In this document: positions 2-27,077 of the stretch, in pieces
Position numbering within the stretch: position 1 is the first letter of the stretch
How the letters are laid out: every line of letters begins with the position of its first letter
DNA from: Actinomycetes bacterium
GTDB taxonomy: Bacteria > Actinomycetota > Acidimicrobiia > Acidimicrobiales > Palsa-688
Direction of reading: 5' to 3'
DNA length: 27,995 bases
Assembly (NCBI GenBank): GCA_021827285.1
Contig: JAKAWM010000001.1
Span: 1 to 27,995 of the forward strand
Translations under genes and position numbers: made by a program
The notes under the pieces: generated by a model
Databases searched by the model: none
What the model was told of the DNA's origin: nothing
Seen by the model: the letters and a program-made list of their open reading frames with translations, nothing else

Positions 2-484
2 CTCCGCCACGCCAAGTCAGACTGGGGCGACCCGGGCTTGCCAGATCACGGTCGGCCCCTCTCTCCCCGAGGAGAACGGGCCGCTCGTGACCTGGCTACC
101 TACCTGCGGCGTATGGGGGTAACGCCGGCGCTCGTGCTGTGTTCCAGTGCCCTGCGGGCGCGCCAAACGCTGGGCGCATTGGCCATTAGCGGGGAGGTCC
201 GTTACGAGGACGCGCTGTACGGAGCTAGTGCCGGTGAGCTCGTGGAGCGGCTTCAGCTCGTGCCCGAGGCCACGCCTTCGGTCCTACTCGTGGGGCACAA
301 TCCCGGCCTCCAGGAACTAGCCCTTCTCCTCGCAGGGGAAGGAAGCGCCGCTCTACGGGCACGCTTGGGCGAGAAGTTCCCGACGGGCGCGCTGGTCGAG
401 TTGGTGTTCCATGGGCCTTGGGCTGAGCTGGCAGGGGACGGGGCAGAGCTGACCGCCTTCATCGCGCCCCGCGACATCGCGTAG
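2..484 (+). CDS. sixA: SixA-like phosphohistidine phosphatase (histidine phosphatase superfamily), 5' end outside window
   Basis: Frame from base 2 reads LRHAKSDWGDPGLPDHGRPLSPRG, in frame with the listed ORF. It has the RHxK catalytic His motif, then LVLCSSALRARQT and LLVGHNPG, all typical of SixA. Confidence 0.88.
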   Translation, partial: LRHAKSDWGDPGLPDHGRPLSPRGERAARDLATYLRRMGVTPALVLCSSALRARQTLGALAISGEVRYEDALYGASAGELVERLQLVPEATPSVLLVGHNPGLQELALLLAGEGSAALRARLGEKFPTGALVELVFHGPWAELAGDGAELTAFIAPRDIA

Positions 485-512
485 AGGCAGAGCACTAGCA
501 GCTCCCGGCTGA

Positions 513-1790
513 CTAACGCCTGGCCGGGAGACCATACGGTGCGTTGGCCAGCTCAGCTTCAATGGCGAGCAGCCGGTTGTACTTGGCCACCCGCTCGCCC
601 CGTGCTGGTGCGCCCGTCTTCAGCTGGCCGCAACCCACCGCGACGGCCAGGTCGGCAATGAAGCTGTCGGGGGTCTCGCCGGAGCGGTGGGACACCATCT
701 GCGTGTAGCCGGCCTCGTTGCAAATGGCGATGGCTTCGAGGGTCTCGCTGACCGTGCCGATCTGGTTGAGCTTTATCAGGGCGGAGTTGCCCACCTTCCG
801 GCCGATCGCCTCACGGATTATGGAGGGGTTGGTCACAAAGACATCGTCTCCCACCAGCTGGGCTCGCCCGCCTAAACGTGCGGTCAGTTTTTCCCATCCG
901 TCCCAGTCGTCCTCGGCCAAACCGTCCTCGATGGACCAGATGGGGTAGTTGGCGACCAGCGTTTCGTACCGCGCGATCATCTCGGCGGTGCTGAAGCGGT
1001 GGCCGGGGGAGTAGCGGTAGCTGCCGTCCGGCTCATGCATCTCGGACGCGGCCGGGTCGAGAGCTATGGCCACCCCCTGGGCCCCGGGGGCGTAACCGGC
1101 AGAGTTGATGGCCTCAACCAATAGGTCAAGGACCTCTTCGGGCGTGCCCAAGTTGGGCGCGAACCCGCCTTCGTCCCCCAGGCCGGTCGAGTGCTTGCGG
1201 GAATGGAGCAGGCTGCGCAAGGCCTGGTAAATCTCGGCTCCCGCCCGTAGCGCTTCGGCAAAGGTGGGAAGCCCTATGGGGGCGAGCATGAACTCCTGGA
1301 ACTCGAGGTCGTTCTGGGCGTGGGCACCGCCGTTCACCACGTTGAAGTGGGGGACAGGAAGGCGCAGCTCAGCGCCCTGAGGCGATAACCATCGGTAAAG
1401 GGGTTGACCCGCAACGGTGGCCATGGCGCGCGCCGCGGCCATGGATGTCCCCACAATCGCGTTGGCACCCAGGCGGGCCTTGTTGTCGGTACCGTCCAGC
1501 TCGATCATGGCCCGATCGAGCTCTGCCAGGCTGGCCCAGGACCGCCCGGACAGCAGGCTGCTTATTTCCGTGTTCACGTTGTTCACGGCCTTGCTGACAC
1601 CCTGGCCCTTGAAGCGCTTCTGGTCCCCGTCTCTCAGCTCTACCGCTTCACGGGTACCGGTGGAAGCTCCGGAAGGGACCCCGGCACTCACGACGGGCCC
1701 GTTGGAGAGGCGCAAGCTCACTTCGAGGGTGGGCCGTGCCCGAGAGTCGAGGATCTCGAGGGCGTGTACTTCGGCGATCTCGTAGGACAT
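513..1790 (-). CDS. eno: Enolase (phosphopyruvate hydratase), divergent type
   Basis: Likely start at ATG 1790 (MSYEIAEVHALEILDSR). Enolase motifs present: PSGASTG, NGGAHA, FQEFM, GDEGGFAP, SIEDG, LVGDD, LIKLNQIG, SHRSGET, QLKTG. The N-terminal extension in the ORF track is not enolase-like. Confidence 0.97.
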   Translation of the reverse strand: MSYEIAEVHALEILDSRARPTLEVSLRLSNGPVVSAGVPSGASTGTREAVELRDGDQKRFKGQGVSKAVNNVNTEISSLLSGRSWASLAELDRAMIELDGTDNKARLGANAIVGTSMAAARAMATVAGQPLYRWLSPQGAELRLPVPHFNVVNGGAHAQNDLEFQEFMLAPIGLPTFAEALRAGAEIYQALRSLLHSRKHSTGLGDEGGFAPNLGTPEEVLDLLVEAINSAGYAPGAQGVAIALDPAASEMHEPDGSYRYSPGHRFSTAEMIARYETLVANYPIWSIEDGLAEDDWDGWEKLTARLGGRAQLVGDDVFVTNPSIIREAIGRKVGNSALIKLNQIGTVSETLEAIAICNEAGYTQMVSHRSGETPDSFIADLAVAVGCGQLKTGAPARGERVAKYNRLLAIEAELANAPYGLPARR

Positions 1791-12696: not shown

Positions 12697-15359
<2,663 letters not shown>

Positions 15360-15372
15360 GGAGATGGTCCGA

Positions 15373-16635
15373 ATGACAAAACTACCACGGGTTGTTAGAA
15401 AGACCGCGGCCGTCGTCTCGGCGGTCGCTTTGTCGGCACCCCTTCTGGCCTCCGGTGCCACGGCGGCCGGTGCTTCCACGCTGCGTCCCGCCGCCCAGAC
15501 GACCACCCTCCAGGTCTGGACAATGGAAACGGCCAGCAGCTTCACCCAGCTACTGCAGGGGTTCACGAAGGAGACAGGCATAAAAGTCCAGGTGGAGCAG
15601 GTGCCCTGGGCCAATGTCAACGACAAGCTCACGACAGCTGTCGCCTCCGGCAACGGCCCGGACGTGGTAGAGGTCGGGCTCTCGGAGCTGCCGTCGTTCG
15701 TTGCGGCCGGGGCGCTCTTGAACCTGAAGCCCTACCTGAAGGCCAACCCGGTGCTCCAGGACAACCATTACCTAGCTGCGGTGTCCTCGAAAGTGACATC
15801 CCCCCGGGGCGAGGACCTCTCCGTCCCCTGGGTAAGCGACGTCCGCATCTTGTTCTACCGGAGTGACATCCTGAAGCAAGCGGGCATCTCCGCACCGCCA
15901 AAGACATGGGCCCAGCTGTTCCAGGACGCCACGAAGTTGGCCCAGCGCGGCACGAACCAGTACGGCTTCTACATCCCGCAATGGGACAGCGCACTACCTG
16001 TGGAGCTGACCTGGCAGGCCGGCGGCCAGGTGACGGGGCCGAATGGCAAGGTCACTTTCAACAGCGCGGCCTTCAGGGCGGCGGTCAACTTCTACACGAG
16101 CTTCTACAAGGACAAACTGGTGCCCACTGCTTCCGACTTCGACCAGACCCAGGGCTTCATATCCGGTGCTGCACCGATGCTGATATCGGGCCCGTACCTG
16201 GCCGCGTCCATCAACAGTGAGGCACCTGACCTGAAGGGCAAGTGGGACGTCGCCCCGCTGCCGAAGGACAAGGACGGCACTTCTCTGTTCGCCGGCTCGA
16301 ACATGGGGATCTGGTACAAGTCAAAGAACGTTGCTGCTTCGCTCAAGCTGCTCGATTACCTGGCAAAGCCCTCGACGCAACTCCAGTGGTTCAAGCTGGC
16401 CGACGAACTGCCGACCAACACGTCCGCCCTGGACGCCCCGAGCCTCATCAGCGACCCGATGGTGCGGGTCTACGTGGACCAGCTCCGCAACGCCGAACCG
16501 CTCCCGCTGGCCCCGCAGTGGAACCAGATCAGCACGGACTTGTTGAACTCCCTCAACAGCATCGTCCTCGACGGCGCCAACGAGCAGGCCACCCTCAGCA
16601 AGCTGAACACAACGGTCGCCTCTCTTCAGCACTAG
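15373..16635 (+). CDS. Carbohydrate ABC transporter substrate-binding protein
   Basis: AAGGAG lies 9 nt before ATG 15373. Motifs: FTKETGIKVQVEQVPW, KLTTAVASGNGPDVVE, LFYRSDIL, PKTWAQL, MLISGPY, KWDVAPLP. Signal peptide has no lipobox Cys. Confidence 0.92.
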   Translation: MTKLPRVVRKTAAVVSAVALSAPLLASGATAAGASTLRPAAQTTTLQVWTMETASSFTQLLQGFTKETGIKVQVEQVPWANVNDKLTTAVASGNGPDVVEVGLSELPSFVAAGALLNLKPYLKANPVLQDNHYLAAVSSKVTSPRGEDLSVPWVSDVRILFYRSDILKQAGISAPPKTWAQLFQDATKLAQRGTNQYGFYIPQWDSALPVELTWQAGGQVTGPNGKVTFNSAAFRAAVNFYTSFYKDKLVPTASDFDQTQGFISGAAPMLISGPYLAASINSEAPDLKGKWDVAPLPKDKDGTSLFAGSNMGIWYKSKNVAASLKLLDYLAKPSTQLQWFKLADELPTNTSALDAPSLISDPMVRVYVDQLRNAEPLPLAPQWNQISTDLLNSLNSIVLDGANEQATLSKLNTTVASLQH

Positions 16636-16659
16636 CAAGCGTAGACACCCAGCCCTCCT

Positions 16660-16691
16660 TGCGGGCGCCGCGCCCTCCCCCGGCGCCCGCA
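16660..16691 (+). other. Intercistronic stem-loop after the binding-protein gene (mRNA stabiliser or attenuator candidate)
   Basis: TGCGGGCGCCG (16660-16670), a 10-nt loop, and CGGCGCCCGCA (16681-16691) form a perfect 11-bp stem at the position typical of sugar ABC operons. Confidence 0.65.
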
Positions 16692-16711
16692 GTGGAGCTT
16701 AGGAGCAGTCC

Positions 16712-17689
16712 TTGAGCACCTCTACGATCGAAGCCATCGCCCCGAGCGCGCCCGCCGTCGTGACCGAGGGCCGACCGGCTGAAGGCCCCCGGCCCAGGAG
16801 GAGGAGACGCGTCAGCCTGACGCCCTACCTGTTCATCAGCCCCACACTGATCTGCCTGGTGGCCTTCGGTGTGCTGCCCATTGCGGTGGCGGCCGTGGTG
16901 AGCCTCACCAACATGAACATAAGCGGCCTGGGCAACCTAGCCAATGTCCACTTCATCGGGCTTTCCAACTACCGCTCCCTCTTCAGCGACCCCGCCTTCT
17001 GGGAGTCGCTGCGCAACACTGGCCTCTACGTCGTCGTAGGGGTGCCCAGCATCATCGTCGGGTCGCTCACCATAGCGATAGCCCTCAACCAGAGCCAGTC
17101 CCGGTTCTTCCGGGCTCTCCGGGCGTTCTACTTCCTCCCGGCGATCACGGCCATCGTCGCCATATCGCTCATCTGGGGCTACCTCTACAACGACCAGTTC
17201 GGGTTACTGAACTACCTGCTCTCGCTCGTCCACGTGCCTCCGGTGGAGTGGCTGACAAGCTCGCTAGTGGCCAAGTTCTCCGTGGCGTTCGTGGCGATCT
17301 GGCGGGCCTCGGGGCTCGACATCGTGATCTTCCTGGCCGGCTTGCAGGCCATCCCCGCCGACTACTACGAGGCCGCGTCCATCGACGGCGCCGGCCAGCT
17401 GCGCCAGGTCTTCAGCATCACCCTTCCCCTGCTCCGCTTCGCCATCTTCTTCGTACTCGTCACGACTCTCATCAGCTGGATGCAGCTGTTCGACGAGCCC
17501 TACGTCCTCACGGCGGGCGGGCCGGTGCACGCGACGACATCCATTTCCCTTTACATCTACCAGCAGGGCTTCAGCTACAACGAGTTCGGGTTCGCGTCGG
17601 CTGCGTCCATGGTGCTGTTCGCCATGATCGCAGTCGTGACAGCCGTCCAGCTCCGCGCCCGGAAGAGGGGTGCCAGTGACAATCTCTAG
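16712..17689 (+). CDS. Carbohydrate ABC transporter permease (MalF-like)
   Basis: Motifs: PYLFISP, FIGLSNY, FWESLRNT, FFLP-like YFLPAI, and the EAA loop LQAIPADYYEAASIDGA. Confidence 0.94.
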   Translation: MSTSTIEAIAPSAPAVVTEGRPAEGPRPRRRRRVSLTPYLFISPTLICLVAFGVLPIAVAAVVSLTNMNISGLGNLANVHFIGLSNYRSLFSDPAFWESLRNTGLYVVVGVPSIIVGSLTIAIALNQSQSRFFRALRAFYFLPAITAIVAISLIWGYLYNDQFGLLNYLLSLVHVPPVEWLTSSLVAKFSVAFVAIWRASGLDIVIFLAGLQAIPADYYEAASIDGAGQLRQVFSITLPLLRFAIFFVLVTTLISWMQLFDEPYVLTAGGPVHATTSISLYIYQQGFSYNEFGFASAASMVLFAMIAVVTAVQLRARKRGASDNL

Positions 17690-18506
17690 TAGGCGGGACC
17701 GTCGGCGCACTGTCCCGATCGGGCTAGCCCTCACCGTCGGCGCCGTACTGACTGCCTTCCCCTTCTTTTGGATGCTGACGACGTCGTTCAAGCCGCTCGA
17801 CCAGTCTTATACCTATCCTCCCAAAGTCGTCCCAACCCGCTGGACGCTCAGCAGCTACATCGAGCTGTTCACGCAGCTCGACTTCGGCCGTTACCTCTTC
17901 AACACCGTCATCGTGGTCCTGGTCAGCTTCGTCGGGCTTTTCTTGATGGCCATGGCCGGCTACGCCTTTGCCAAGTTCCGCTTCCGCGGCAAGGGGCCTC
18001 TTTTCATGCTCGTGCTGTCGACCATGATGATCCCCATCCAGGTGACTATGATCCCGACGTACCTGATCCTGAACAGTGTTAAGTTGACCAACACGCTCGT
18101 CGGGATAGCGCTACCCACGCTTGTCAGCGCGTTCAACGTGTTCCTGTTCCGCCAGTTCATGACGACCATACCCGACGAAGTCCTGGAGGCCGCCCGGCTC
18201 GACGGCGCCCGCGAGGCGCGGGCCTTCTTCTCGATCGTGCTGCCCATGTCCAAGCCCATCCTGGCAGTGGTCGGGGTGCTCACTTTCATCTCAGGGTGGA
18301 ACAGCTTCTTGTGGCCCCTCATCATCGCCAACGACCAGAACCACTACACCCTGTCTGTGGGGGTGTCGCTGCTCAACAAGCAATTGGCCGTGAACCCCCC
18401 ACTTGAGATGGCGGGCGCCTCCATGATGGTGGTCCCCATCGTCATCGTGTTCATGCAGCTGCAAAAGTACATAGTGCGAGGAGTCAACATGTCGGGGCTA
18501 AAGTGA
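17670..18506 (+). CDS. Carbohydrate ABC transporter permease (MalG-like)
   Basis: Motifs: PFFWMLTTSFK, NTVIV, AGYAFAKFRFRGK, and the EAA loop IPDEVLEAARLDGA. Overlaps the upstream permease by 20 bp. Confidence 0.94.
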   Translation: MPVTISSRRDRRRTVPIGLALTVGAVLTAFPFFWMLTTSFKPLDQSYTYPPKVVPTRWTLSSYIELFTQLDFGRYLFNTVIVVLVSFVGLFLMAMAGYAFAKFRFRGKGPLFMLVLSTMMIPIQVTMIPTYLILNSVKLTNTLVGIALPTLVSAFNVFLFRQFMTTIPDEVLEAARLDGAREARAFFSIVLPMSKPILAVVGVLTFISGWNSFLWPLIIANDQNHYTLSVGVSLLNKQLAVNPPLEMAGASMMVVPIVIVFMQLQKYIVRGVNMSGLK

Positions 18507-20152
18507 ACGGCCGGCCGAGGCTCCCCCGGGGACGGCGGCCGAGAGGCTTTTTACACAGGGAGGGCACCCGAGTCGTCGACGGGCAGGGCGAACCCGTGCT
18601 CCTGCGCGGGATGGGGCTTGGGAACTGGCTCCTGCCTGAGGGCTACATGTGGGGCTTCGTCGAGCCAGGCCCACAGTCGCCGCGCGAGATCGAAGCACTG
18701 GTAAGCCAACTCGTTGGGCCAGCGAAGGCGGCTCTCTTTTGGCGAGAGTTCCGGGACCGGTTCATCTCAGAGGACGACATCGCGCGCATCGCGGCCGAAG
18801 GCATGAACCACGTCCGCCTGCCCATCAACTGGCGGGTCGTGATGGACCAAACCGGGGTGCTCCGGCCCGAGGGGACCGCGTTGGTCGACCGGCTCATAGA
18901 GTGGTGCCGCGCCCACGGGCTCTGGGTCGTCCTCGACCTGCATGGGGCGCCGGGGGGCCAGACCGGCACCAACATCGACGACTCTCCTAACCCGGCGCCA
19001 GAGCTGTTCACTGGCGCCCGGTGGCGCGACCTTACGGTAAGCCTGTGGCAACAGCTGGCGGACCGTTACCGCGACGATACCGTTGTCGCTGGCTACGATC
19101 TCTTGAACGAGCCCCTGCCCAACGAATACGGGGACCTCTTCCGGAACGAGCTTGTCAAGCTCTACCGGGAGCTGTCGGTGGCCATCCGGGAAGTCGACCC
19201 CAACCACATGGTTATCTACGAGGGGGCCCGTTGGGCGACGGACTGGAGCATGTTCAGCGAAGTCTGGGACGACAACTCGATGTTGGAGTTCCACAAGTAC
19301 TGGTCGCCGCCTGACCGACCGAGCATCCAGGGCTTCATCGACACCGGGAAGAGCCTGGGCCTGCCTATCTACATGGGCGAGGGCGGGGAGAACAACCTCG
19401 ACTGGGTGCAAACGGCTTTCCAGTTGTACGACGACTGCGAAATCTCGTGGTGCTTCTGGACCTGGAAGAAGGTCGGGGTCCGCACCTCGCCGTGCTCGGT
19501 GGCCCCGCCCGTCGGATGGGACGAAGTTCTCGCGTACGCGGCCGCCAAGGCGGAGAGGCCGGCCAGCGAGAGGGCCTGGCGAGTTCTCCGTGAATTGGCC
19601 AACGCCACGAGCCTTTCCCAGTGCACCTACCAGCCCGAGGTGGTCCGGGCATTGCTCCGGCGCCCGCCGGTGAGGATACCAGCGACCGGCTTCGGGTTCC
19701 GTGGGCCAGGCATTTCCTATCAGACAACTACGGCCGTGGCACTTCGCGACTTTCGCAGCGATGACCTGGTCACGGTCCACCACAGCAACGGCGCAGAACC
19801 CCTGAACTTGGACTTCCACCACTCTCCAGCCACCCCGAGGTCCGCCCAGGATGAGCTGTTCGTCTCGCTTGGCCCGGGTGACTGGGTCGGCTACGAGGTC
19901 GAGATATGCCAACCGGTGCGTCTCGAAGTAGTAGTCCACATGGGGGTCGGCCAAAGGAGCGCCGCCGGTGCCGGAAGCGCCCTTCTCGTCGTAGTCGACG
20001 GCGTAAGGGCAGAGACGGTGGCCACAGGGGACAAAAACGTCGTACGAGCTTCGACAGCCTCGCCCGTCGTAGCAGGGTGGCACACCGTGCGGGTAGTTGG
20101 GCAGGCGCGAGAGGTCCTACTGCATTGGCTAGAGGTGATGCCGGCGCGTTGA
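18503..20152 (+). CDS. Cytoplasmic GH5 glycoside hydrolase with C-terminal CBM6/CBM35-like beta-sandwich
   Basis: Motifs: LRGMGLGNWL, GMNHVRLP, VVLDLHGAPGGQ, YDLLNEP (acid/base), MGEGG (nucleophile), WCFWTWK. C-terminal GDWVGYEV...AGWHTVRV is CBM-like. No signal peptide; GTG start overlaps the permease TGA. Confidence 0.88.
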   Translation: MNGRPRLPRGRRPRGFLHREGTRVVDGQGEPVLLRGMGLGNWLLPEGYMWGFVEPGPQSPREIEALVSQLVGPAKAALFWREFRDRFISEDDIARIAAEGMNHVRLPINWRVVMDQTGVLRPEGTALVDRLIEWCRAHGLWVVLDLHGAPGGQTGTNIDDSPNPAPELFTGARWRDLTVSLWQQLADRYRDDTVVAGYDLLNEPLPNEYGDLFRNELVKLYRELSVAIREVDPNHMVIYEGARWATDWSMFSEVWDDNSMLEFHKYWSPPDRPSIQGFIDTGKSLGLPIYMGEGGENNLDWVQTAFQLYDDCEISWCFWTWKKVGVRTSPCSVAPPVGWDEVLAYAAAKAERPASERAWRVLRELANATSLSQCTYQPEVVRALLRRPPVRIPATGFGFRGPGISYQTTTAVALRDFRSDDLVTVHHSNGAEPLNLDFHHSPATPRSAQDELFVSLGPGDWVGYEVEICQPVRLEVVVHMGVGQRSAAGAGSALLVVVDGVRAETVATGDKNVVRASTASPVVAGWHTVRVVGQAREVLLHWLEVMPAR

Positions 20153-20237
20153 CGTGCACCGGTCCGCCTGGCCTCGCGGGTGCTTGCCCCCCGAAAGTAG
20201 CCACAACCACAGAACGACAAGACATCAGGAGGACACC

Positions 20238-23200
20238 ATGAAGGCACGACGATCCGCAGGATGGCTGGGACGAATGCTACCGGCACTGGCATTACTGCTG
20301 ACCGTATTGCAAGTAACGGCTTCGCCGGCCGCCCGTGCCAGCACCGACCCGAACTTCCTGGCGGCGAGCGGCCCTTACCTGAGGAATAATTCGGGTACCG
20401 GCTCGATCGTAACCCTTCGAGGGACGAACCTTGGCGGCTGGCTGACCATGGAGGACTGGATGTCGCCGTTGGGGCAGTTTGCCCTCGGCCGGACAGGCTG
20501 GACGGCTACGGCGTCAGTGAACAGCTCCACGGCTGGCAACGTGCTCGACGGCGACGGCACCACCGGGTGGACCACGGGAGCGGCCCAGCAAGGGGGTGAG
20601 TGGTTGCAGATCGATATGGGGTCGCCAACATTGCTCAACCGGGTCTTGGTGGACGCGGCCGGGTTCACGGGCGACTACCCCGCCGGTTACCAGGTGCTCG
20701 TCTCTTCTGACGGGAGCACCTGGAACAACGTGGCGAGCGGCTCGGGGACGATGCAGCAGACCTCCATCTTCTTCACGCCTCAAGTTGCCCAGTACGTGAG
20801 GATTGTCCAAACGGGCACATCGTCGGTTCCGTGGTCTGTCGCGGAGTTCAACGCCTTCAGCGACCCGGTCCTGAACGACGGCGGTTTCACGGCGACGGCA
20901 TCGGTCACCGGAGCTGGCTACTCTCCGGCCAACGCGCTCGACGGGAACGTCAACGACCGCTGGACGACGGGTACTCCCCAGAGCCCAGGGCAGTGGTTCA
21001 CGGTCGACATGGGCTCGGTCGTGCCCATGAACGAGGTGATCTTCGACTCTGGTCCGACATCCGCGAACGATTACCCGGCGTCGTACGAAGTCTGGGGCTC
21101 CCAGGACGGCACCAACTGGACCAAGTACGCGAGCGCGCTCGGGAGCGGGCGCATCACGACGGCGACCCTCTGGACTACTGAGTACGTTCGCTACCTCAAG
21201 ATCGTGCAAACGGGGACCAGTTCGTACTGGTGGTCGATCGCAGGGCTCGATGTCTACTCCAGCCTCGCTTTTGACCGCACGGGCTGGACCATAACCGCGT
21301 CGCAGACCGAGAGCGGAAGCTCCCCCAACAATGTCAAAGACGGCAACTCGAACACGCGCTGGACGACTGGCGTCGCCCAGGCACCCGGCCAGTGGCTAGA
21401 AGTGGACATGGGTGCCACGGAAACCTTCAACCAGGTACAGCTGGACAACTCCGTCGACACCAACGATTACCCCCGCGGCTACACGGTCCAGGTCTCGCCC
21501 GACGGTTCGACGTGGACGCAGGTCGCGAGCGGCTCGGGTTACCCCTCTGCGACCCCCATCAACTTCCCCGCCGTTTCCGCCAGGTATATCAAGATAACCC
21601 AGACCGGGTCGTCGTCTAGTTGGTGGTCGGTGGACGAGCTGAACGTGTACCTCAACAACGACGACTACGACATGTACAACGAGTACGAGGCGCGCTTTGG
21701 GGACGCGACCACACAGAGCCTGCTCAGCACCTACCAGAACAGCTGGATCCAGTCATCGGACCTCGACAACATTGCCGCCATGGGCATGAACTTCGTGCGC
21801 CTGAATATCGGCTGGAACACCCTGCTCAACGCCGACGGCACTTGGAGGTCGAACGCCTTCACGGAGATCGACTGGCTGGTGCAGCAAGCCGCACAGCGCC
21901 ACATCTACGTCCTTCTCGACCTGCACACCCTGCCCGGAGGCGACTGCCCTTGGGAGAGCTGCGGGCGCGAGGGCGAGAACCCGAACGAGTTCTGGAACAA
22001 CTCGACCTACCAGGACTGGGTGAACAACATCTGGTCGGTCATGGCCGCACGCTACGCTGGGAACCCCTGGGTGGCTGGTTACGACCTCATGAATGAGCCA
22101 TTGCTCAGCTACAACGAGACAGCGGCCCAAATCCAGCAGAAGAACGACTATTACAACCGGTTGTACAACACCGTGCGGGCTGTCGACCCCGACCACACCA
22201 TATTCATGGAGGCGTTCTTCGGCTGGAGCAACATCGCTTCGCCGTCGACCTACGGGTGGACCAACGTGGCCTACGAACTGCACCCCTACGACATGCCGGA
22301 CGGGCTCGACTGGACCGCGCAGAACAGCCTGGTGCAGAGCCAGCTTTCCTCGGTGGCCGCCCAGCAGGCAGCCTGGGACGTCCCCGTGCTCTACGGCGAG
22401 TACCAGCTCTACGAGTACGACGACGTCTGGTCGGAGTTCATGGCTGGCCTGAACGCTCTGCACGTGTCGTGGTGCAACTGGTCCTACAAGGTGACAGGTG
22501 GTCAGTTCGACGGGGGTGGCGGCTACTGGGGCTTCTACAACAGCGACCCCAACCCGGTGCCCGTCATCAACAACGACAACTCCTCGACCATAAACAGCAA
22601 GCTTGCGATGTTCGCCACCAGCGATTTCCAGCCTAATACCAGTTTCATCAACGACGTCGAGAAGTTCACTGGCGGTTTCGATTGGATGGAGCCGACCCCA
22701 CTGCCGGAGAACAACTGGGTCGCGACCGCCTCGGAGACCGAGCCCGGCGGTTCGCCCGCTAACGCCGTCGACTGGAACACCAGCACCAGGTGGAGCACGG
22801 GTGCCTCGCAGACCCCGGGGCAGTGGTTCCAAGTGAACCTCGGCTCCATGCAGGTCTTCGACCAGGTGTCCTGGGAGACCGAGTCGGACGATACTTGGGA
22901 CTTCCCCCGTGGGTACGAGATCCAAGTGTCGACTGACGGCAGTACTTGGACGACAGTTAAGACCGGGCAAGGCTTCGGGTGGAAACAGGTGGTCGCCTTC
23001 GCGCCGCAGTACGCGCAGTACGTCCGCATAACCCAGACGGGGAACGCACAGGAGTGGTGGTCCATAGCCGAGTTCCACGTCTACGCGGAGATGGCGCTCG
23101 ACCGGTCTCAGTGGACGGCGACGGCTTCGTTGAGCGCTTCTGGGGACCCGCCTTCCAACGCGATCGACGGCAATACCAGCACTCGGTGGAGCACTGGCGC

Positions 23201-23876
23201 AGCGCAGACCCCCGGCCAGTGGTTCGAAATGGACTTTGGGAAAATGGAGACTTTCAACCGGCTGCTCCACGATGCTGGCTCGTCCACAGGTGATTACCCG
23301 CGCGGCTACGAAGTCCAGGTGTCCAACGACGGGTCGACCTGGACGACCGTCGCTACCGGCAGCGGCACCGGTCAGGCCGTGCTGGTCCAGTTCCCAGTGC
23401 AGGTGGCGCGCTACCTGCAGATCGTGCAGACCGGCAGCGCCGGGAACTGGTGGTCGATCCAGGAACTGTACGTCTATGGCGAGCAAGAGGACAGCCAAAG
23501 CGGCTGGAGCGCAACAGCCTCCTCTACCGAACCGGGCGGGTCGACGTCCAATGCCTTGGATGGCAACCTCAACACCCGCTGGAGCACTGGGGCCCCGCAA
23601 GCGCCCGGGGAGTGGTTCGAAGCGGACCTCGGCTCGCCACAGTGGTTCAACCAGGTTGTCATGGACTCCGGCCCGAGCACGGGTGACTACGCGCGTGGCT
23701 ACATCTTGCAAGTGTCGAACGACAACACTAACTGGCAGACGGTGGCCAACGGCGAAGGCAGTGGGCCGTGGGTCGACGTCAATTTCCCTATTGTCCAGGA
23801 CCGGTACATCAAGGTCATTCTCCAAGATAGCTCGAGCAATTGGTGGTCGATCGCCGAGTTCCGGATCTTCCAATAG
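20238..23876 (+). CDS. Secreted multimodular GH5 glycoside hydrolase with six F5/8-type C (CBM32/discoidin) modules, three inserted in the catalytic domain and three C-terminal
   Basis: AGGAGG before ATG 20238 and a signal peptide. LRGTNLGGWL..EDWMSP is followed by three modules (W(T/S)TG..Q..G(Q/E)W, DYP..Y, WS(I/V)). The GH5 domain resumes with ARFG...WI..SDLDNI, NFVRLN, LLDLH, DLMNEP (E at 22095) and VLYGEY (E at 22398), then three more modules. Confidence 0.93.
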   Translation: MKARRSAGWLGRMLPALALLLTVLQVTASPAARASTDPNFLAASGPYLRNNSGTGSIVTLRGTNLGGWLTMEDWMSPLGQFALGRTGWTATASVNSSTAGNVLDGDGTTGWTTGAAQQGGEWLQIDMGSPTLLNRVLVDAAGFTGDYPAGYQVLVSSDGSTWNNVASGSGTMQQTSIFFTPQVAQYVRIVQTGTSSVPWSVAEFNAFSDPVLNDGGFTATASVTGAGYSPANALDGNVNDRWTTGTPQSPGQWFTVDMGSVVPMNEVIFDSGPTSANDYPASYEVWGSQDGTNWTKYASALGSGRITTATLWTTEYVRYLKIVQTGTSSYWWSIAGLDVYSSLAFDRTGWTITASQTESGSSPNNVKDGNSNTRWTTGVAQAPGQWLEVDMGATETFNQVQLDNSVDTNDYPRGYTVQVSPDGSTWTQVASGSGYPSATPINFPAVSARYIKITQTGSSSSWWSVDELNVYLNNDDYDMYNEYEARFGDATTQSLLSTYQNSWIQSSDLDNIAAMGMNFVRLNIGWNTLLNADGTWRSNAFTEIDWLVQQAAQRHIYVLLDLHTLPGGDCPWESCGREGENPNEFWNNSTYQDWVNNIWSVMAARYAGNPWVAGYDLMNEPLLSYNETAAQIQQKNDYYNRLYNTVRAVDPDHTIFMEAFFGWSNIASPSTYGWTNVAYELHPYDMPDGLDWTAQNSLVQSQLSSVAAQQAAWDVPVLYGEYQLYEYDDVWSEFMAGLNALHVSWCNWSYKVTGGQFDGGGGYWGFYNSDPNPVPVINNDNSSTINSKLAMFATSDFQPNTSFINDVEKFTGGFDWMEPTPLPENNWVATASETEPGGSPANAVDWNTSTRWSTGASQTPGQWFQVNLGSMQVFDQVSWETESDDTWDFPRGYEIQVSTDGSTWTTVKTGQGFGWKQVVAFAPQYAQYVRITQTGNAQEWWSIAEFHVYAEMALDRSQWTATASLSASGDPPSNAIDGNTSTRWSTGAAQTPGQWFEMDFGKMETFNRLLHDAGSSTGDYPRGYEVQVSNDGSTWTTVATGSGTGQAVLVQFPVQVARYLQIVQTGSAGNWWSIQELYVYGEQEDSQSGWSATASSTEPGGSTSNALDGNLNTRWSTGAPQAPGEWFEADLGSPQWFNQVVMDSGPSTGDYARGYILQVSNDNTNWQTVANGEGSGPWVDVNFPIVQDRYIKVILQDSSSNWWSIAEFRIFQ

Positions 23877-24261: not shown

Positions 24262-26859
24262 TCAGCCAACCAGCGTCAGGCCGCGCCTGACAGTGCTACC
24301 GCCGTCTACGAAGATCGTCTGGCCCGACGCCAGGACGCCTTTTAGCGAGGCCAGCAAGTGCATAGCCCTGCTGTTGAGGTTCAGGTAGAAGGTACCGCTG
24401 CCGCCAGCGCTCAGGCCATAGCCGCTGCGGGCCAGCAAGATGTTGTGGGACCAGAGCAGTATGGTTCCCCGGCAACGGGCGCTGGCGCAACGGAGGCGGA
24501 GGCCCACCGAGCCGACGGACACCCTGGTGCGGCCACCGGTCAGGGCGCTGATGGCGGGACGGGTCGGCGCTGGGGCCACCAACGTCACGAGCCGGCGCGC
24601 GGTGTAGCCGCCGTTCACGAAGACGGTCTCTCCCGCCACCAAGGCGTGGCCGTTGGCGTGCTCAAGGACGTTCATCGCCCTGGTGTTGAGGCTTAGGTAG
24701 AAGGTGCCGGTGCCCCCAACGCTGAGGGCATAACCGTTTTGGGCCAGCAGGATGTTGTCGTACCACAGCCGTATGGAGCCGTGGCAATAAGCGCCCGTGC
24801 AGTGCAACTTCAGCCCCGCCAAGTTTTTCGACACCACGACTCGGGCGCTGAGCGGGTCGATAGCCGGCCGAGGAGGTGCCGTGGTCGTTGTCGGCGGGAC
24901 GGTCGTAGTGGTAGTCGTTGTAGCCGGCGCGGAGGACGTGGCGGCCAGTCCCTGCGCGCCCGCAGCCGTCGTGTTAGTGGCTTCGGTGTCAGCACCCAGG
25001 TAGAGGTTGTAGTTGCCCCCGGAGGGGTTGACGGTGCCGGGCATGGTAAGGGTCAGCAAGTCTCCGGCCTGGACCGTGCTGGCCAGCCGGTACCTGACGT
25101 CGTTCGACCCCGCGCCCTGCAGGGCGGCCATGGTCTGGGTGCCAGTGGATGTCGTTGAGTCGCTGAGGGTTGCAGAAGCGGGGAGCTCCGTCCCTGCCGG
25201 CCCGAGCACCTCGATGGTGTCCACGCCGCCGACCAGCGTGGCGGCTGCCTTGAAGGTGCCGATGGTGTAGGTAGCTAGGGCTCCTGCGGTGTTGGGAGAC
25301 ACGCTGACGCTGGGCCCGGTACCTGTTGCGACCGAGCCGATCACGTAGGAGGGTGCGTAGGCGGGCGTGGGGTCTGAAGTGGTCCATACCGACAGACCGC
25401 TTGAGCCGCCGTAGGTCCCGGCCGGCGGGTTCTGGACGTTATAGACCTGGATGGTCAGCGTATTGTTGTCGGCCACAGTGATGTTGGTAACCAAGGTCAG
25501 CGTGTCGCCGGCCGACTTGGTGGTGGACGGCACCAGCCCGCTCAAAACCTGGGTCGCACCGGTTGTGTTATCGGTCACCGTAGCTCCCGTCGCCGCGGCG
25601 AACACGGTACCCGTGGGGCCTTCAACCGTTATCGACCCGCCGGGCGCCAGTGCCCCGCTCGCCCCGACATTGAAGCTGACGTCATAAGTGGAGCTGGAGC
25701 CAGCCGCGTTGCTTGAGAGGCTGAGGGACAGGGCGGAGACCGTCCCACCGAAAAATGCGGGCCCGGCGTAGTGGAAGACGCCCGCCACATCGGCCACGAA
25801 GTAATCAGACTCATTGGACGCCGGGTTCACCCCGACGGCCGAGAGGCTCAGTTCGTTACCAGCCGTAATACCGCTGGGCACCGAGACCTGGAGGAGAACT
25901 CCTCCTTTGGTCGAGGTCGCGGGGCTGATGGAGGTGACAGCGGTGACGCCCAGGATGGCGTTCGTGGTGGTGTCTACCACCTGGTAGCTGGCCAGGTTGC
26001 TCGAAAACGTCACGCCCCCGGTACCCCCAGTGCCACCAGCCGTCACGGAGCAAGTATTCGGCGGCGGTGCCCCAGTGTTGGTGCAAGCCTGCAACTCGAT
26101 GGTGGTCGTGCCCGCGGCGATCGTGGCCGGCACTGCGATGCTGCTCATCTGGTAAGAGGCTCCAGTGCCCAAGCCATACGAGCTCGCCGTGACGGCCATG
26201 GCCCCCGAGCCTGCTGCGATCGCCACGGCGCCGGCGCTGCCCTGCCAGCCCGGGCTCGAACTGGTGCTGGCGTAGAAGGTGTAGGACCCGGGTGCTGGGT
26301 TGATGGCAGCAAAGGTGAGCATCAGGGTGTCACCGGCGTGGACGCTCCCAGTACCACCGAGGTAAACCACGAGGGGTGCGGCTTCGGCCGAGGCCAGGTT
26401 GCTCTCAGCTGCCCCGACGGTCAGGAACCCGTTACCTACGGTGGCGTAGAAGGTGTACCCGGTAGATGGGTCCACAACGCCGACCCCAGATCCGGAGACG
26501 GCGGAGACGACGTGGTTGTAGGAACCGGTTGCCGCGTCGCCCTCGGCGAGCCTGAGGTAGGAAGCACCCGCCTTGTTCGCACTGACGCTGAGCGCCAAGG
26601 GCGTCGTGAACTGCACGGTGTAGTTACCCGTGCTTCCTTGGGTATTGGGTGTGACCGCCGCGCTCAGCCCGGTGACCGCGGATGGGGCGCCGCTGATCGT
26701 ATAGCCCAGGGTTGGCAGGGGCGAAAAGGCGGACGCGCTAACGGCGTTGACCACCGACATCGCTCCGAAGCTGACCATGCCGAGGCCCAAAGCTCCGGCC
26801 AGTAGGCTTGCCTGGCGCCGTCTGGGCCTTACATGCTCGTTAGTCCCTTTTCCATGCAT
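24262..26859 (-). CDS. Large secreted or surface protein: about four Gly/Ser/Thr-rich beta-sandwich repeats, a Thr-rich linker and two Cys-containing C-terminal repeats
   Basis: GGAGG upstream of ATG 26859 and a signal peptide (RRRQASLL...ASA|FS). Recurring V.(P/S)N..G...Y and NP..G.Y motifs. Twin L.L.C....C.G.I.LW..NILLA..GY.LS.GG.GTFYL.LN.RAM domains at the C-terminus. Confidence 0.85.
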   Translation of the reverse strand: MHGKGTNEHVRPRRRQASLLAGALGLGMVSFGAMSVVNAVSASAFSPLPTLGYTISGAPSAVTGLSAAVTPNTQGSTGNYTVQFTTPLALSVSANKAGASYLRLAEGDAATGSYNHVVSAVSGSGVGVVDPSTGYTFYATVGNGFLTVGAAESNLASAEAAPLVVYLGGTGSVHAGDTLMLTFAAINPAPGSYTFYASTSSSPGWQGSAGAVAIAAGSGAMAVTASSYGLGTGASYQMSSIAVPATIAAGTTTIELQACTNTGAPPPNTCSVTAGGTGGTGGVTFSSNLASYQVVDTTTNAILGVTAVTSISPATSTKGGVLLQVSVPSGITAGNELSLSAVGVNPASNESDYFVADVAGVFHYAGPAFFGGTVSALSLSLSSNAAGSSSTYDVSFNVGASGALAPGGSITVEGPTGTVFAAATGATVTDNTTGATQVLSGLVPSTTKSAGDTLTLVTNITVADNNTLTIQVYNVQNPPAGTYGGSSGLSVWTTSDPTPAYAPSYVIGSVATGTGPSVSVSPNTAGALATYTIGTFKAAATLVGGVDTIEVLGPAGTELPASATLSDSTTSTGTQTMAALQGAGSNDVRYRLASTVQAGDLLTLTMPGTVNPSGGNYNLYLGADTEATNTTAAGAQGLAATSSAPATTTTTTTVPPTTTTAPPRPAIDPLSARVVVSKNLAGLKLHCTGAYCHGSIRLWYDNILLAQNGYALSVGGTGTFYLSLNTRAMNVLEHANGHALVAGETVFVNGGYTARRLVTLVAPAPTRPAISALTGGRTRVSVGSVGLRLRCASARCRGTILLWSHNILLARSGYGLSAGGSGTFYLNLNSRAMHLLASLKGVLASGQTIFVDGGSTVRRGLTLVG

Positions 26860-27077
26860 TTCAGTGACACCTCCGCTTGCGCTGAACATGGCAACCCTAC
26901 CGACGGGGGAGGCGTAGGTGCAGGTCGCGCACAGTTTTGTTACAAAGCCGGGCCCGTGCTCGCTCTCTGGGGTGACGTGATCGCATCATCTGGAGATGCT
27001 CCTGTACCTGGCATTGGGCCGCCCTGCAGCGCCCGCGCTACATTCGGGCCTAACCCGTAGCCCAGGAGGACGCCAGC

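What the first reader, a model, noticed from the sequence alone, without database searches (positions are those of the whole stretch)
20238..23876. GH5 catalytic barrel split by an approximately 390-aa insertion of three CBM32 modules, with three more at the C-terminus
The first barrel strand and loop (LRGTNLGGWLTMEDWMSPLG, ending 20474) are separated from the rest of the GH5 domain (from about 21651, DDYDMYNEYEARFG) by three complete F5/8-type C modules. In related GH5 enzymes this loop is short. After the barrel (NEP and GEY intact) come three more homologous modules. The loop after strand 1 is on the catalytic face of a TIM barrel, so the insert could sit over the active site and clamp the substrate with the C-terminal triplet. 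CBM32 arrays normally lie before or after catalytic domains; I do not know a characterised enzyme with this nested 3+3 layout.
Basis: partly seen in the sequence, partly recalled or inferred. Interest (0 to 1): 0.8.

Follow-up and report, generated by a model that had tools for sequence, protein, structure and literature searches.

The report
GH5 barrel split by CBM32 triplet
A secreted sugar-cleaving enzyme really does have its catalytic barrel interrupted after the first strand by three sugar-binding modules (with three more at the end), but this layout is shared by hundreds of uncharacterised soil-bacterial enzymes and follows a design principle already known from other GH5 enzymes.

Summary
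The gene (20238-23876, +, 1212 aa) encodes, in order:
- a signal peptide;
- a 46-aa N-terminal piece (hairpin, strand beta1 and the GGWL..E.W loop);
- three CBM32 (F5/8 type C) modules, aa 82-472;
- the remaining 346 aa of a GH5 barrel with intact NEP and GEY catalytic motifs;
- three more CBM32 modules.

Un-nested close relatives run straight from ...WMSPLG-xx to DDY..RFG. The predicted structure places the N-terminal piece in the barrel (Z 40 to a GH5_22 structure).

The layout is not rare. At least 115 of the 120 best homologue clusters share it, in Streptomyces, Micromonospora, Paenibacillus and Microbacteriaceae. Sister lineages carry one or two CBM32 modules at exactly the same point. 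I found no characterised member.

CBMs nested inside GH5 are already known: MtGlu5 has a CBM29-like insert, and plant GH5_14 has a fascin-like module after strand 1. So this is a new variant of a known kind.

The whole seven-domain protein is predicted as one rigid body (pTM 0.89). Whether the insert covers the active site could not be tested, so the "clamp" idea stays open.

The gene sits in a conserved cassette of an ABC importer, a cytoplasmic GH5 and the secreted GH5. The cassette looks horizontally acquired.

Earlier scan notes describe other nested GH5 designs on other DNA, but not this one.

The parts
20238..20339 (+). Signal peptide (aa 1-34, MKARRSAGW...SPAARA); the start ATG is preceded by AGGAGG
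   Evidence: Sequence read directly. The cleavage site is inferred by eye, not predicted by a tool.
20340..20480 (+). N-terminal piece of the GH5 barrel (aa 35-81): a beta-hairpin, strand beta1 (LRGTN) and the GGWL..E.WMSPLG loop
   Evidence: Aligns to beta1 of 9ku5 and 8z2w. Fourteen invariant columns in 56 homologues. pLDDT about 94 with a strand at model residues 26-29. VIA and Atlas alignments start at model residue 1-5 and cover more residues than the C-terminal part alone holds.
20481..21653 (+). Nested insert: three CBM32 / F5/8 type C modules with no linkers between them (M1 aa 82-208, M2 209-341, M3 342-472)
   Evidence: Pfam PF00754 and PF22633. Self-alignment. The modules lie exactly where un-nested relatives have no residues. 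Each position is orthologous across homologues.
21654..22691 (+). Rest of the GH5 (beta/alpha)8 barrel (aa 473-818): helix alpha1 onward, with R521, H563, N619-E620 (acid/base), H682/Y684, E721 (nucleophile) and W745/W748
   Evidence: PF00150 at 102.8 bits. Profile alignments to 9ku5, AoBgl and Candida Exg. Invariant columns. VIA Z 40 to 9ku5.
22695..23873 (+). C-terminal array of three CBM32 modules (M4 aa 820-950, M5 951-1081, M6 1082-1212); the stop codon is at 23874-23876
   Evidence: Pfam, self-alignment. pLDDT 90-96 in the full-length model. Homologues carry either one or three modules here.
18503..20152 (+). Upstream partner gene: an un-nested GH5 of 549 aa without a signal peptide (cytoplasmic); best PDB relative is the GH5_22 exo-beta-xylosidase 9ku5
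   Evidence: It is 58% and 48% identical to the GH5 genes linked to the nested gene in Streptomyces and Microbacterium.
12697..18506 (+). Rest of the locus: ROK regulator, GH1 (interrupted by one TAG), solute-binding protein and two ABC permeases
   Evidence: Pfam. GH1 stop codon.

Best explanation
The gene encodes a secreted, retaining GH5 beta-glycosidase. Its (beta/alpha)8 barrel is encoded in two pieces. A 46-aa N-terminal piece (hairpin, beta1 and the substrate-pocket loop GGWL..E.W) and a 346-aa C-terminal piece fold together. Three CBM32 modules are spliced, without linkers, into the beta1-alpha1 loop on the catalytic face, and three more follow the barrel.

Shown:
- The split is real, all catalytic residues are intact, and the N-terminal piece is predicted to sit in the barrel.
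- The architecture is an old, conserved family trait. It arose from a single nested CBM32 that was amplified in place to three.
- All seven domains are predicted with high confidence as one fixed assembly.

Inferred:
- The six modules form a rigid multivalent glycan-binding platform next to the catalytic pocket. This would hold a polymeric beta-glycan (most likely a beta-1,3/1,6-glucan) while the pocket-type (exo-like) active site trims it.
- The products would be imported by the co-encoded ABC transporter and finished by the cytoplasmic GH5 and GH1.
- The locus was probably acquired horizontally by this lineage.
For: Split and completion of the barrel:
- Sequence match of aa 54-80 to beta1 of GH5 structures.
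- Exact junction against un-nested relatives.
- AF2 model of aa 36-818: pLDDT 92.4, pTM 0.90.
- VIA: 9ku5_A Z 40 with 367 residues aligned over model 2..776 against chain 0..485; Candida Exg Z 34 over model 5..775 against chain 7..390.
- Atlas: a 420-aa un-nested GH5 aligns 377 residues at 1.6 A, more than the 346 residues of the C-terminal part.

Catalytic competence:
- R, H, NEP, HxY, GE(Y) and W are aligned and invariant.
- E72 aligns with the Glu of LEPW in AoBgl. From my own knowledge this is Exg E27, which closes the exo pocket; PDB entry 2pbo is its E27Q mutant.

Family trait:
- 327 homologue clusters were found. Of the best 120, 67 are n-CCC-G-C and 48 are n-CCC-G-CCC.
- Representatives with one nested CBM32 (17) and with two (1) have it at the same site.
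- All nested forms fall in one 32-row clade (SH-aLRT 98). The three-module forms lie inside a clade of one-module forms (SH-aLRT 97).
- Modules cluster by position, not by protein.

Rigidity:
- The modules abut without linkers.
- The full-length model has pLDDT 91.9 and pTM 0.89 over 1178 residues.

Pathway:
- Locus content.
- The same SBP-permease-permease-GH5-nested GH5 order occurs in Streptomyces. Microbacterium adds GH3, GH30, GH1 and ROK. Paenibacillus adds GH3-CBM6.

Horizontal origin:
- The gene was not found in 400 genomes of the own class, 400 of the own phylum, 2 of the same genus or 10 of the same family.
- The contig's enolase is 83-85% identical to that of the same-genus genomes, so the contig is not mis-binned.
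Against: - No member of the family has been assayed, so substrate, exo/endo mode and carbohydrate binding by the modules are all inferences.
- The best solved relative is only 24% identical and is a xylosidase. GH5 specificity is notoriously not predictable at this distance.
- CBM32 modules more often bind galactose-type, GlcN or uronate ligands than beta-glucans, so a beta-galactan or another glycan is a live alternative.
- I could not inspect coordinates, so 'next to the catalytic pocket' rests only on barrel topology (the loop after beta1 lies on the catalytic face).
- pTM is the model's own confidence, not a measurement.
- The complex prediction gave no verdict.
- The GH1 of the locus carries an in-frame stop, so the pathway may be decaying in this genome, or the assembly may have an error there.
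Confidence: 0.6

Rival explanations
1. Ordinary avidity and targeting modules in a permissive loop. The six CBM32 modules only tether the enzyme to a polysaccharide or cell wall, as terminal CBM arrays do. Their nested position is a historical accident with no effect on catalysis or on the shape of the active site.
For: - The number of C-terminal modules varies (one or three) without loss of the family.
- Many close GH5 relatives work without any insert.
- The beta1-alpha1 loop tolerates 0, 1, 2 or 3 modules, and in plants it holds an unrelated fascin-like domain. This suggests a permissive site.
Against: - The nested triplet is kept in 115 of 120 clusters, with position-specific orthology of each module.
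- There are no linkers between modules.
- The model places all domains with pTM 0.89-0.90.
- In MtGlu5, the one nested-CBM GH5 that was tested, the insert extends the substrate groove and raises affinity about 10^5-fold (PMC9063844).
Confidence: 0.25
2. The modules are not carbohydrate binders here. They serve as a structural scaffold, an oligomerisation surface or a cell-surface attachment device, and the enzyme acts on small glycoconjugates rather than on polymers.
For: - The structural neighbours include rutinosidases and endoglycoceramidases, which act on glycoconjugates.
- F5/8 type C domains bind lipids or proteins in other contexts (my own knowledge).
- The very compact prediction fits a scaffold role.
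Against: - The best sequence matches of the modules are proven CBM32s: AlyQ, the chitosanase/glucanase DD1 and DD2 modules, and YeCBM32.
- The locus encodes an oligosaccharide ABC importer and glycosidases, which is typical of polysaccharide use.
Confidence: 0.1
3. Artefact. The N-terminal GH5-like piece is a chance match or an assembly chimera, and the real enzyme is an N-terminal CBM32 array followed by a GH5 that lacks strand 1.
For: The source is a fragmented metagenome-assembled genome (285 contigs, 60% complete).
Against: - The same split occurs in more than 100 independent clusters, including complete Streptomyces, Paenibacillus and Microbacterium genomes.
- Fourteen invariant residues in the 46-aa piece.
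- Exact collinearity with un-nested relatives.
- Structural alignments.
Confidence: 0.02

Closest known systems
Plant GH5_14 exo-beta-1,3-glucosidases (rice OsGH5BG; cotton GhGH5BG model)
   Same: - A non-catalytic, probably glycan-binding module is inserted after beta-strand 1 of a GH5 barrel, the same loop as here (PMC3526467).
- In the cotton model the GH5 domain is residues 25-53 plus 194-495, and the insert is residues 64-176 (PMC10858996).
- Both have a pocket-type, exo-like GH5 related to the fungal GH5_9 enzymes.
   Different: - The plant insert is one beta-trefoil (fascin-like) domain, not three CBM32 beta-sandwiches.
- The plant enzymes have no C-terminal array.
- They are plant-specific.
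- The function of the plant insert is itself unknown.
MtGlu5 of Meiothermus taiwanensis (PDB 7vt8), a GH5 endo-beta-1,4-glucanase with an inserted CBM29-like module
   Same: - It is a characterised GH5 whose barrel is interrupted by a CBM.
- The insert and the catalytic domain bind substrate cooperatively along a continuous groove (PMC9063844).
- It appears among my structural matches (Z 28.5).
   Different: - A single CBM of another family, inserted late in the barrel (the paper's deletion construct keeps residues 1-235 and 366-455) rather than after beta1.
- An endo-acting Cel5A-like cleft, not a pocket.
- A different GH5 lineage.
GH5_22 exo-beta-xylosidase of Geobacillus thermodenitrificans OS27 (PDB 9ku5/9kua), and fungal GH5_9 exo-beta-1,3-glucanases (Candida Exg 1cz1, AoBgl 8z2w)
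   Same: - These are the closest solved catalytic domains: Z 40 and Z 34, with 367 and 325-328 residues aligned.
- They share the RG.NLGGWL..E.W strand-1 motif and all GH5 catalytic residues.
   Different: - Only 20-24% identical.
- Their beta1-alpha1 loop is about 18 residues and holds no module.
- Their substrate specificity cannot be transferred at this distance.
GH10 xylanases with CBMs inside the catalytic domain (cited as Flint 1997 and Wu 2021 in PMC9063844)
   Same: One or more CBMs are nested in a loop of a clan GH-A TIM barrel, so the design principle is established.
   Different: - A different GH family, different CBM families and a different loop.
- I know these only through the citation and from my own memory. 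I did not read the papers here.

Membership tests
Glycoside hydrolase family 5 (clan GH-A, Pfam PF00150) | Significant match to the family profile | tested here: met
   PF00150 scores 102.8 bits against a cut-off of 23.5, over aa 498-751.
Glycoside hydrolase family 5 (clan GH-A, Pfam PF00150) | Complete (beta/alpha)8 barrel | tested here: met
   On the predicted model only. VIA Z 40 to 9ku5 with 367 residues aligned from model residue 2 to 776. Atlas: 377 residues at 1.6 A to an un-nested 420-aa GH5.
Glycoside hydrolase family 5 (clan GH-A, Pfam PF00150) | Acid/base Glu in NEP after strand 4 and nucleophile Glu after strand 7, plus the conserved Arg, His, His-x-Tyr and Trp | tested here: met
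   N619-E620, E721, R521, H563, H682/Y684 and W745/748 align to the corresponding residues of 9ku5, AoBgl and Exg. They are invariant in 56-71 homologues.
A named GH5 subfamily (GH5_22, GH5_9, GH5_14 or other) | Placement in the CAZy subfamily tree or a match to a subfamily HMM | not testable with these tools
   No CAZy or dbCAN subfamily models are available. The nearest solved enzymes are only 20-24% identical. I do not assign a subfamily.
CBM32 (Pfam PF00754 F5/8 type C) | Profile match and beta-sandwich fold for each module | tested here: met
   Six stretches totalling 413 bits, and PF22633 at 327 bits. Sequence matches to solved CBM32s: AlyQ, 4zz5/2rva and YeCBM32. All-beta modules with pLDDT 90-96.
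CBM32 (Pfam PF00754 F5/8 type C) | Demonstrated carbohydrate binding | not testable with these tools
   Needs glycan arrays or ITC on isolated modules.
Nested-CBM GH5 enzymes of the MtGlu5 type | CBM29-like module inserted late in a Cel5A-like barrel | tested here: not met
   Here the insert follows beta1 and is made of CBM32 modules. In MtGlu5 the insert lies between residues 235 and 366. The principle is the same, but this is not the same family.
Plant GH5_14 (fascin-like insert after strand 1) | Single beta-trefoil fascin-like module after strand 1; plant origin | tested here: not met
   The insertion site is the same. But the insert is three PF00754 modules and the family is bacterial.

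The most novel reading that the evidence does not exclude
The nested triplet and the C-terminal array are not loose tethers. Together with the barrel they would build one rigid seven-domain machine. CBM32 surfaces would form part of the substrate path to the pocket, as a composite cleft or cage that feeds a polymer chain end into an exo-acting GH5. The family would be an uncharacterised GH5 lineage with a specificity not yet described for GH5, and with the first tandem-CBM insertion shown to shape an active site.
Probability: 0.25. Interest if true: 0.65.

Novelty: new variant of a known kind. Interest (0 to 1): 0.45.

Why it matters
Inserting binding modules into the loops of a catalytic barrel, rather than hanging them on the ends, fixes their geometry relative to the active site. 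The one tested GH5 example, MtGlu5, gained about five orders of magnitude in substrate affinity this way.

This family offers a natural series at one identical loop position: 0, 1, 2 or 3 inserted CBM32 modules, combined with 0, 1 or 3 C-terminal modules. That makes it a ready-made system for asking what nested and tandem CBMs add.

The family is large, is widespread in soil Actinomycetota and Paenibacillus, and lies in conserved sugar-import cassettes. Yet no member has a known substrate, and databases label the proteins only as 'discoidin domain-containing protein'. Characterising one member would annotate hundreds of genes.

It is not a new principle, so the value is moderate.

Tried and rejected
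- Complex prediction. The protein was cut into three chains: the beta1 piece, the GH5 remainder, and the CBM32 triplet as the partner. The tool gave NO VERDICT: score 0.75, but one control scored 0.59. It is evidence neither for nor against docking of the triplet on the barrel. No contacts were returned, so the 'over the active site' question stayed open.\n- Literature searches. Searches for a characterised member or a described nested GH5/CBM32 architecture found nothing relevant (for the GH5_22 structure paper). Two searches failed on syntax.\n- Triplet duplication. I looked for a one-to-one relation between the inserted and the C-terminal triplets (M1-M4, M2-M5, M3-M6). Identities do not support it (41, 44 and 47%, against 56% for M3-M5). 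The module tree gives only weak hints, with in1 near post2 and in3 near post3 at SH-aLRT 83-89.\n- Plant-type inserts. I first suspected that the representatives with an insert of about 112 aa that my CBM profile missed (P0165, P0229, P0243) were plant GH5_14 enzymes. Pfam finds no domain in the insert, and in the tree they group with a CBM32-bearing bacterial-type row. I make no claim about them.\n- NCBIfam gave no informative family.\n- The promoter and terminator scan around the gene found nothing.\n- Mis-binning of the contig was considered and rejected.
Full report
THE GENE

The long ORF at 20154-23876 (+) most likely starts at the ATG at 20238, which lies 7 nt downstream of an AGGAGG ribosome-binding site. 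The first 34 residues look like a Sec/Tat-type signal peptide (read by eye).

Pfam finds six F5/8 type C (PF00754, i.e. CBM32) stretches totalling 413 bits, and one GH5 hit (PF00150, 102.8 bits) at aa 498-751.

IS THE BARREL REALLY SPLIT?

Yes. Four lines of evidence agree.

1. Split sequence match. In a phmmer search of PDB sequences, the match to the two best GH5 structures comes in two pieces. Residues 54-80 (…LRGTNLGGWLTMEDWMSP…) align to chain residues 31-58, which is strand beta1 and the loop after it. Residues 488 onward align to chain residues 69/76 onward. About 410 residues therefore occupy a place where these enzymes have about 18.

2. Exact junction. I aligned the junction with the closest un-nested relatives found in a search of 1.84 billion representatives (about 50% identical in the catalytic part). 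They run directly from …WMSPLGA(I/V/T) to D(D/E)Y…RFG. Relatives with one, two or three CBM32 modules carry them at exactly that point. By self-alignment the insert is aa 82-472 (391 aa) and consists of three complete modules without linkers. Three more modules follow the barrel, and all six are 39-56% identical to one another.

3. Conservation. The 46-aa N-terminal piece has 14 invariant positions in 56 homologues. This is as conserved as the catalytic core.

4. Structure prediction. An AlphaFold2 model of aa 36-818, built on 71 sequences, has pLDDT 92.4 and pTM 0.90.
   - VIA-align gives Z 40 to the GH5_22 exo-beta-xylosidase 9ku5, with 367 residues aligned across model 2..776 against chain 0..485.
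   - It gives Z 34 to Candida exo-beta-1,3-glucanase, across model 5..775 against chain 7..390.
   - An un-nested 420-aa GH5 from the ESM Atlas superposes on 377 residues at 1.6 A.
   - Both aligned lengths exceed the 346 residues of the C-terminal piece, and both alignments start at the model's N-terminus. So the N-terminal piece is modelled as part of the barrel.

CATALYTIC COMPETENCE

Profile alignments to 9ku5, AoBgl and Candida Exg place the following residues at the positions of the eight GH5 signature residues: R521, H563, N619-E620 (acid/base), H682/Y684, E721 (nucleophile) and W745/748. All are invariant across homologues.

E72 in the strand-1 loop aligns with the Glu of LEPW in AoBgl. 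From my own knowledge this corresponds to Exg Glu27, which helps close the exo pocket. I take this as a hint of an exo-type pocket, not as proof.

HOW COMMON IS THE LAYOUT?

It is very common.

- The word-indexed search found 327 homologue clusters.
- I scored the best 120 with profiles for the N-terminal piece, the CBM32 module and the GH5 remainder. Of these, 67 are n-CCC-G-C (about 945 aa; Microbacteriaceae, Cellulomonas, Agromyces and others) and 48 are n-CCC-G-CCC (about 1215 aa; Streptomyces, Micromonospora, Salinispora, Catenulispora, Paenibacillus). The rest are fragments or one n-CC-G-CCC form.
- They are annotated only as 'discoidin domain-containing protein', or by automatic names.
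- Among the 150 best 50%-identity representatives of the catalytic part, about 100 have no insert and 17 have one CBM32 at the same site, for example Cohnella soli P0123, which is n-C-G-CCC and 59% identical. One has two and three have three.
- A tree of the catalytic residues alone puts all nested forms in one 32-row clade (SH-aLRT 98), apart from 91 un-nested rows. The three-module forms lie inside a clade of one-module forms (SH-aLRT 97).
- A tree of the modules groups them by position (in1, in2, in3, post1, post3) rather than by protein.

The simplest history is one ancient insertion of a CBM32 into the beta1-alpha1 loop, in-place amplification to three, and long retention of each copy. 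This is an inference from quick trees without a root.

IS IT ALREADY DESCRIBED?

I found no paper on this family in the held library. The principle, however, is known.

- Aspeborg et al. [quoted passage not shown] A modelling note on the cotton homologue gives the GH5 domain as residues 25-53 plus 194-495, with the insert at 64-176 (PMC10858996). That is the same loop.
- MtGlu5 (PDB 7vt8) is a GH5 endoglucanase with a CBM29-like module inserted later in the barrel. Its deletion lowers catalytic efficiency, and the full-length protein binds substrate about 10^5-fold better than either part alone, along a continuous groove (PMC9063844). I found this paper through an earlier scan note and read it here.
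- The MtGlu5 paper also cites GH10 xylanases with internal CBMs.

So this is a new variant, with tandem CBM32 modules after strand 1 plus a homologous C-terminal array. It is not a new kind.

HOW MIGHT IT WORK?

The full mature protein (1178 aa, 46-sequence alignment) is modelled with pLDDT 91.9 and pTM 0.89. For seven domains this means the model is confident about their mutual positions. It fits the absence of linkers and the positional conservation of each module.

My best reading is a rigid, multivalent glycan-binding platform fixed next to the catalytic face, since the loop after beta1 lies on that face of a TIM barrel.

The tools return no coordinates. A three-chain complex prediction designed to test it gave no verdict, and I do not count it either way.

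CONTEXT AND SUBSTRATE

The gene is last in a co-directional locus:
- a ROK regulator;
- a GH1;
- a solute-binding protein;
- two ABC permeases;
- a 549-aa GH5 without a signal peptide;
- this gene.

The same SBP-permease-permease-GH5-nested GH5 order is found in Streptomyces sp. NBC_00080. In Microbacterium pumilum the nested gene lies beside GH3, GH30, GH1, the same transporter, the same cytoplasmic GH5 and a ROK gene. In Paenibacillus agaridevorans it lies beside a GH3-CBM6 and a transporter. The cytoplasmic GH5 is 58% and 48% identical to the Streptomyces and Microbacterium ones respectively.

This is the signature of an extracellular-cleavage, import and intracellular-finishing pathway for a beta-linked glycan. 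The structural neighbours (exo-beta-1,3-glucanases, a beta-xylosidase, diglycosidases) and the GH30/GH3/GH1 company make a beta-1,3/1,6-glucan my first guess. A beta-galactan or xylan is not excluded, given what CBM32 modules usually bind.

ORIGIN IN THIS GENOME

The window is a whole contig of a 60%-complete metagenome-assembled genome.

- The nested gene was not found at E <= 1e-50 in 400 sampled genomes of its class or in 400 of its phylum.
- It was not found (at E <= 1e-20) in two same-genus genomes (92-93% complete) or in ten same-family genomes. One of these, G781, is unpublished, and the 'not found in the family' statement partly rests on it.
- The cytoplasmic GH5 partner also lacks a close orthologue there.
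- The contig's enolase is 83-85% identical to that of the same-genus genomes, so the contig is not mis-binned.
- G+C is slightly lower across the locus (0.61-0.64, against 0.65-0.69 elsewhere).

The cassette was probably acquired horizontally. The nearest named relatives are Streptomyces proteins at 64-68% identity, and unnamed metagenomic ones reach 77-81%.

VERDICT

The nested 3+3 layout is real, and I found no characterised member. But it is a common family trait with characterised analogues, and the clamp idea is untested.
- Novelty: new variant of a known kind.
- Interest: moderate (0.45).

Noticed in passing
window 13926-15359 (+), stop near 14319-14321: The GH1 gene of the same locus has a single in-frame TAG exactly where the conserved Trp of LYHWD is expected: it reads TLYH*DMPQ. 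Both halves are otherwise intact. This could be a recent inactivation or an assembly or sequencing error. It bears on whether the pathway is still functional in this genome.
   Followed up: partly
window 12697-23876, against the rest of the genome and its relatives: The whole glycan-use cassette appears foreign to this lineage. Neither the nested GH5 nor its cytoplasmic GH5 partner has a close orthologue in the two same-genus or ten same-family genomes searched. G+C is 2-4 points lower across the locus than in the first half of the contig.
   Followed up: partly
P0165, P0179, P0229, P0233, P0243 (representatives): Five GH5 relatives of about 510-525 aa carry an insert of about 112-138 aa at the same beta1-alpha1 site. 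Neither my CBM32 profile nor Pfam recognises it. It may be a divergent CBM32 or a different nested module.
   Followed up: partly
P0126 (2481 aa): One relative combines the single nested CBM32 with a very long tail: 3 further CBM32, 3 CBM6/35, fn3 and 6 CHB_HEX_C/Fn3_assoc repeats. This shows how freely the family accretes binding modules.
   Followed up: no
window 21945-21962 (aa 570-575, PGGDCPWESCGR): Two nearly invariant cysteines sit five residues apart in the loop after strand 3 of the barrel, next to the conserved His. They may form a disulfide that stiffens an active-site loop. They are not present in the PDB relatives aligned.
   Followed up: no
window 24262-26889 (-): The convergent downstream gene encodes an 875-aa protein with no Pfam or NCBIfam family above threshold (only a weak DUF2808 hit).
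   Followed up: no
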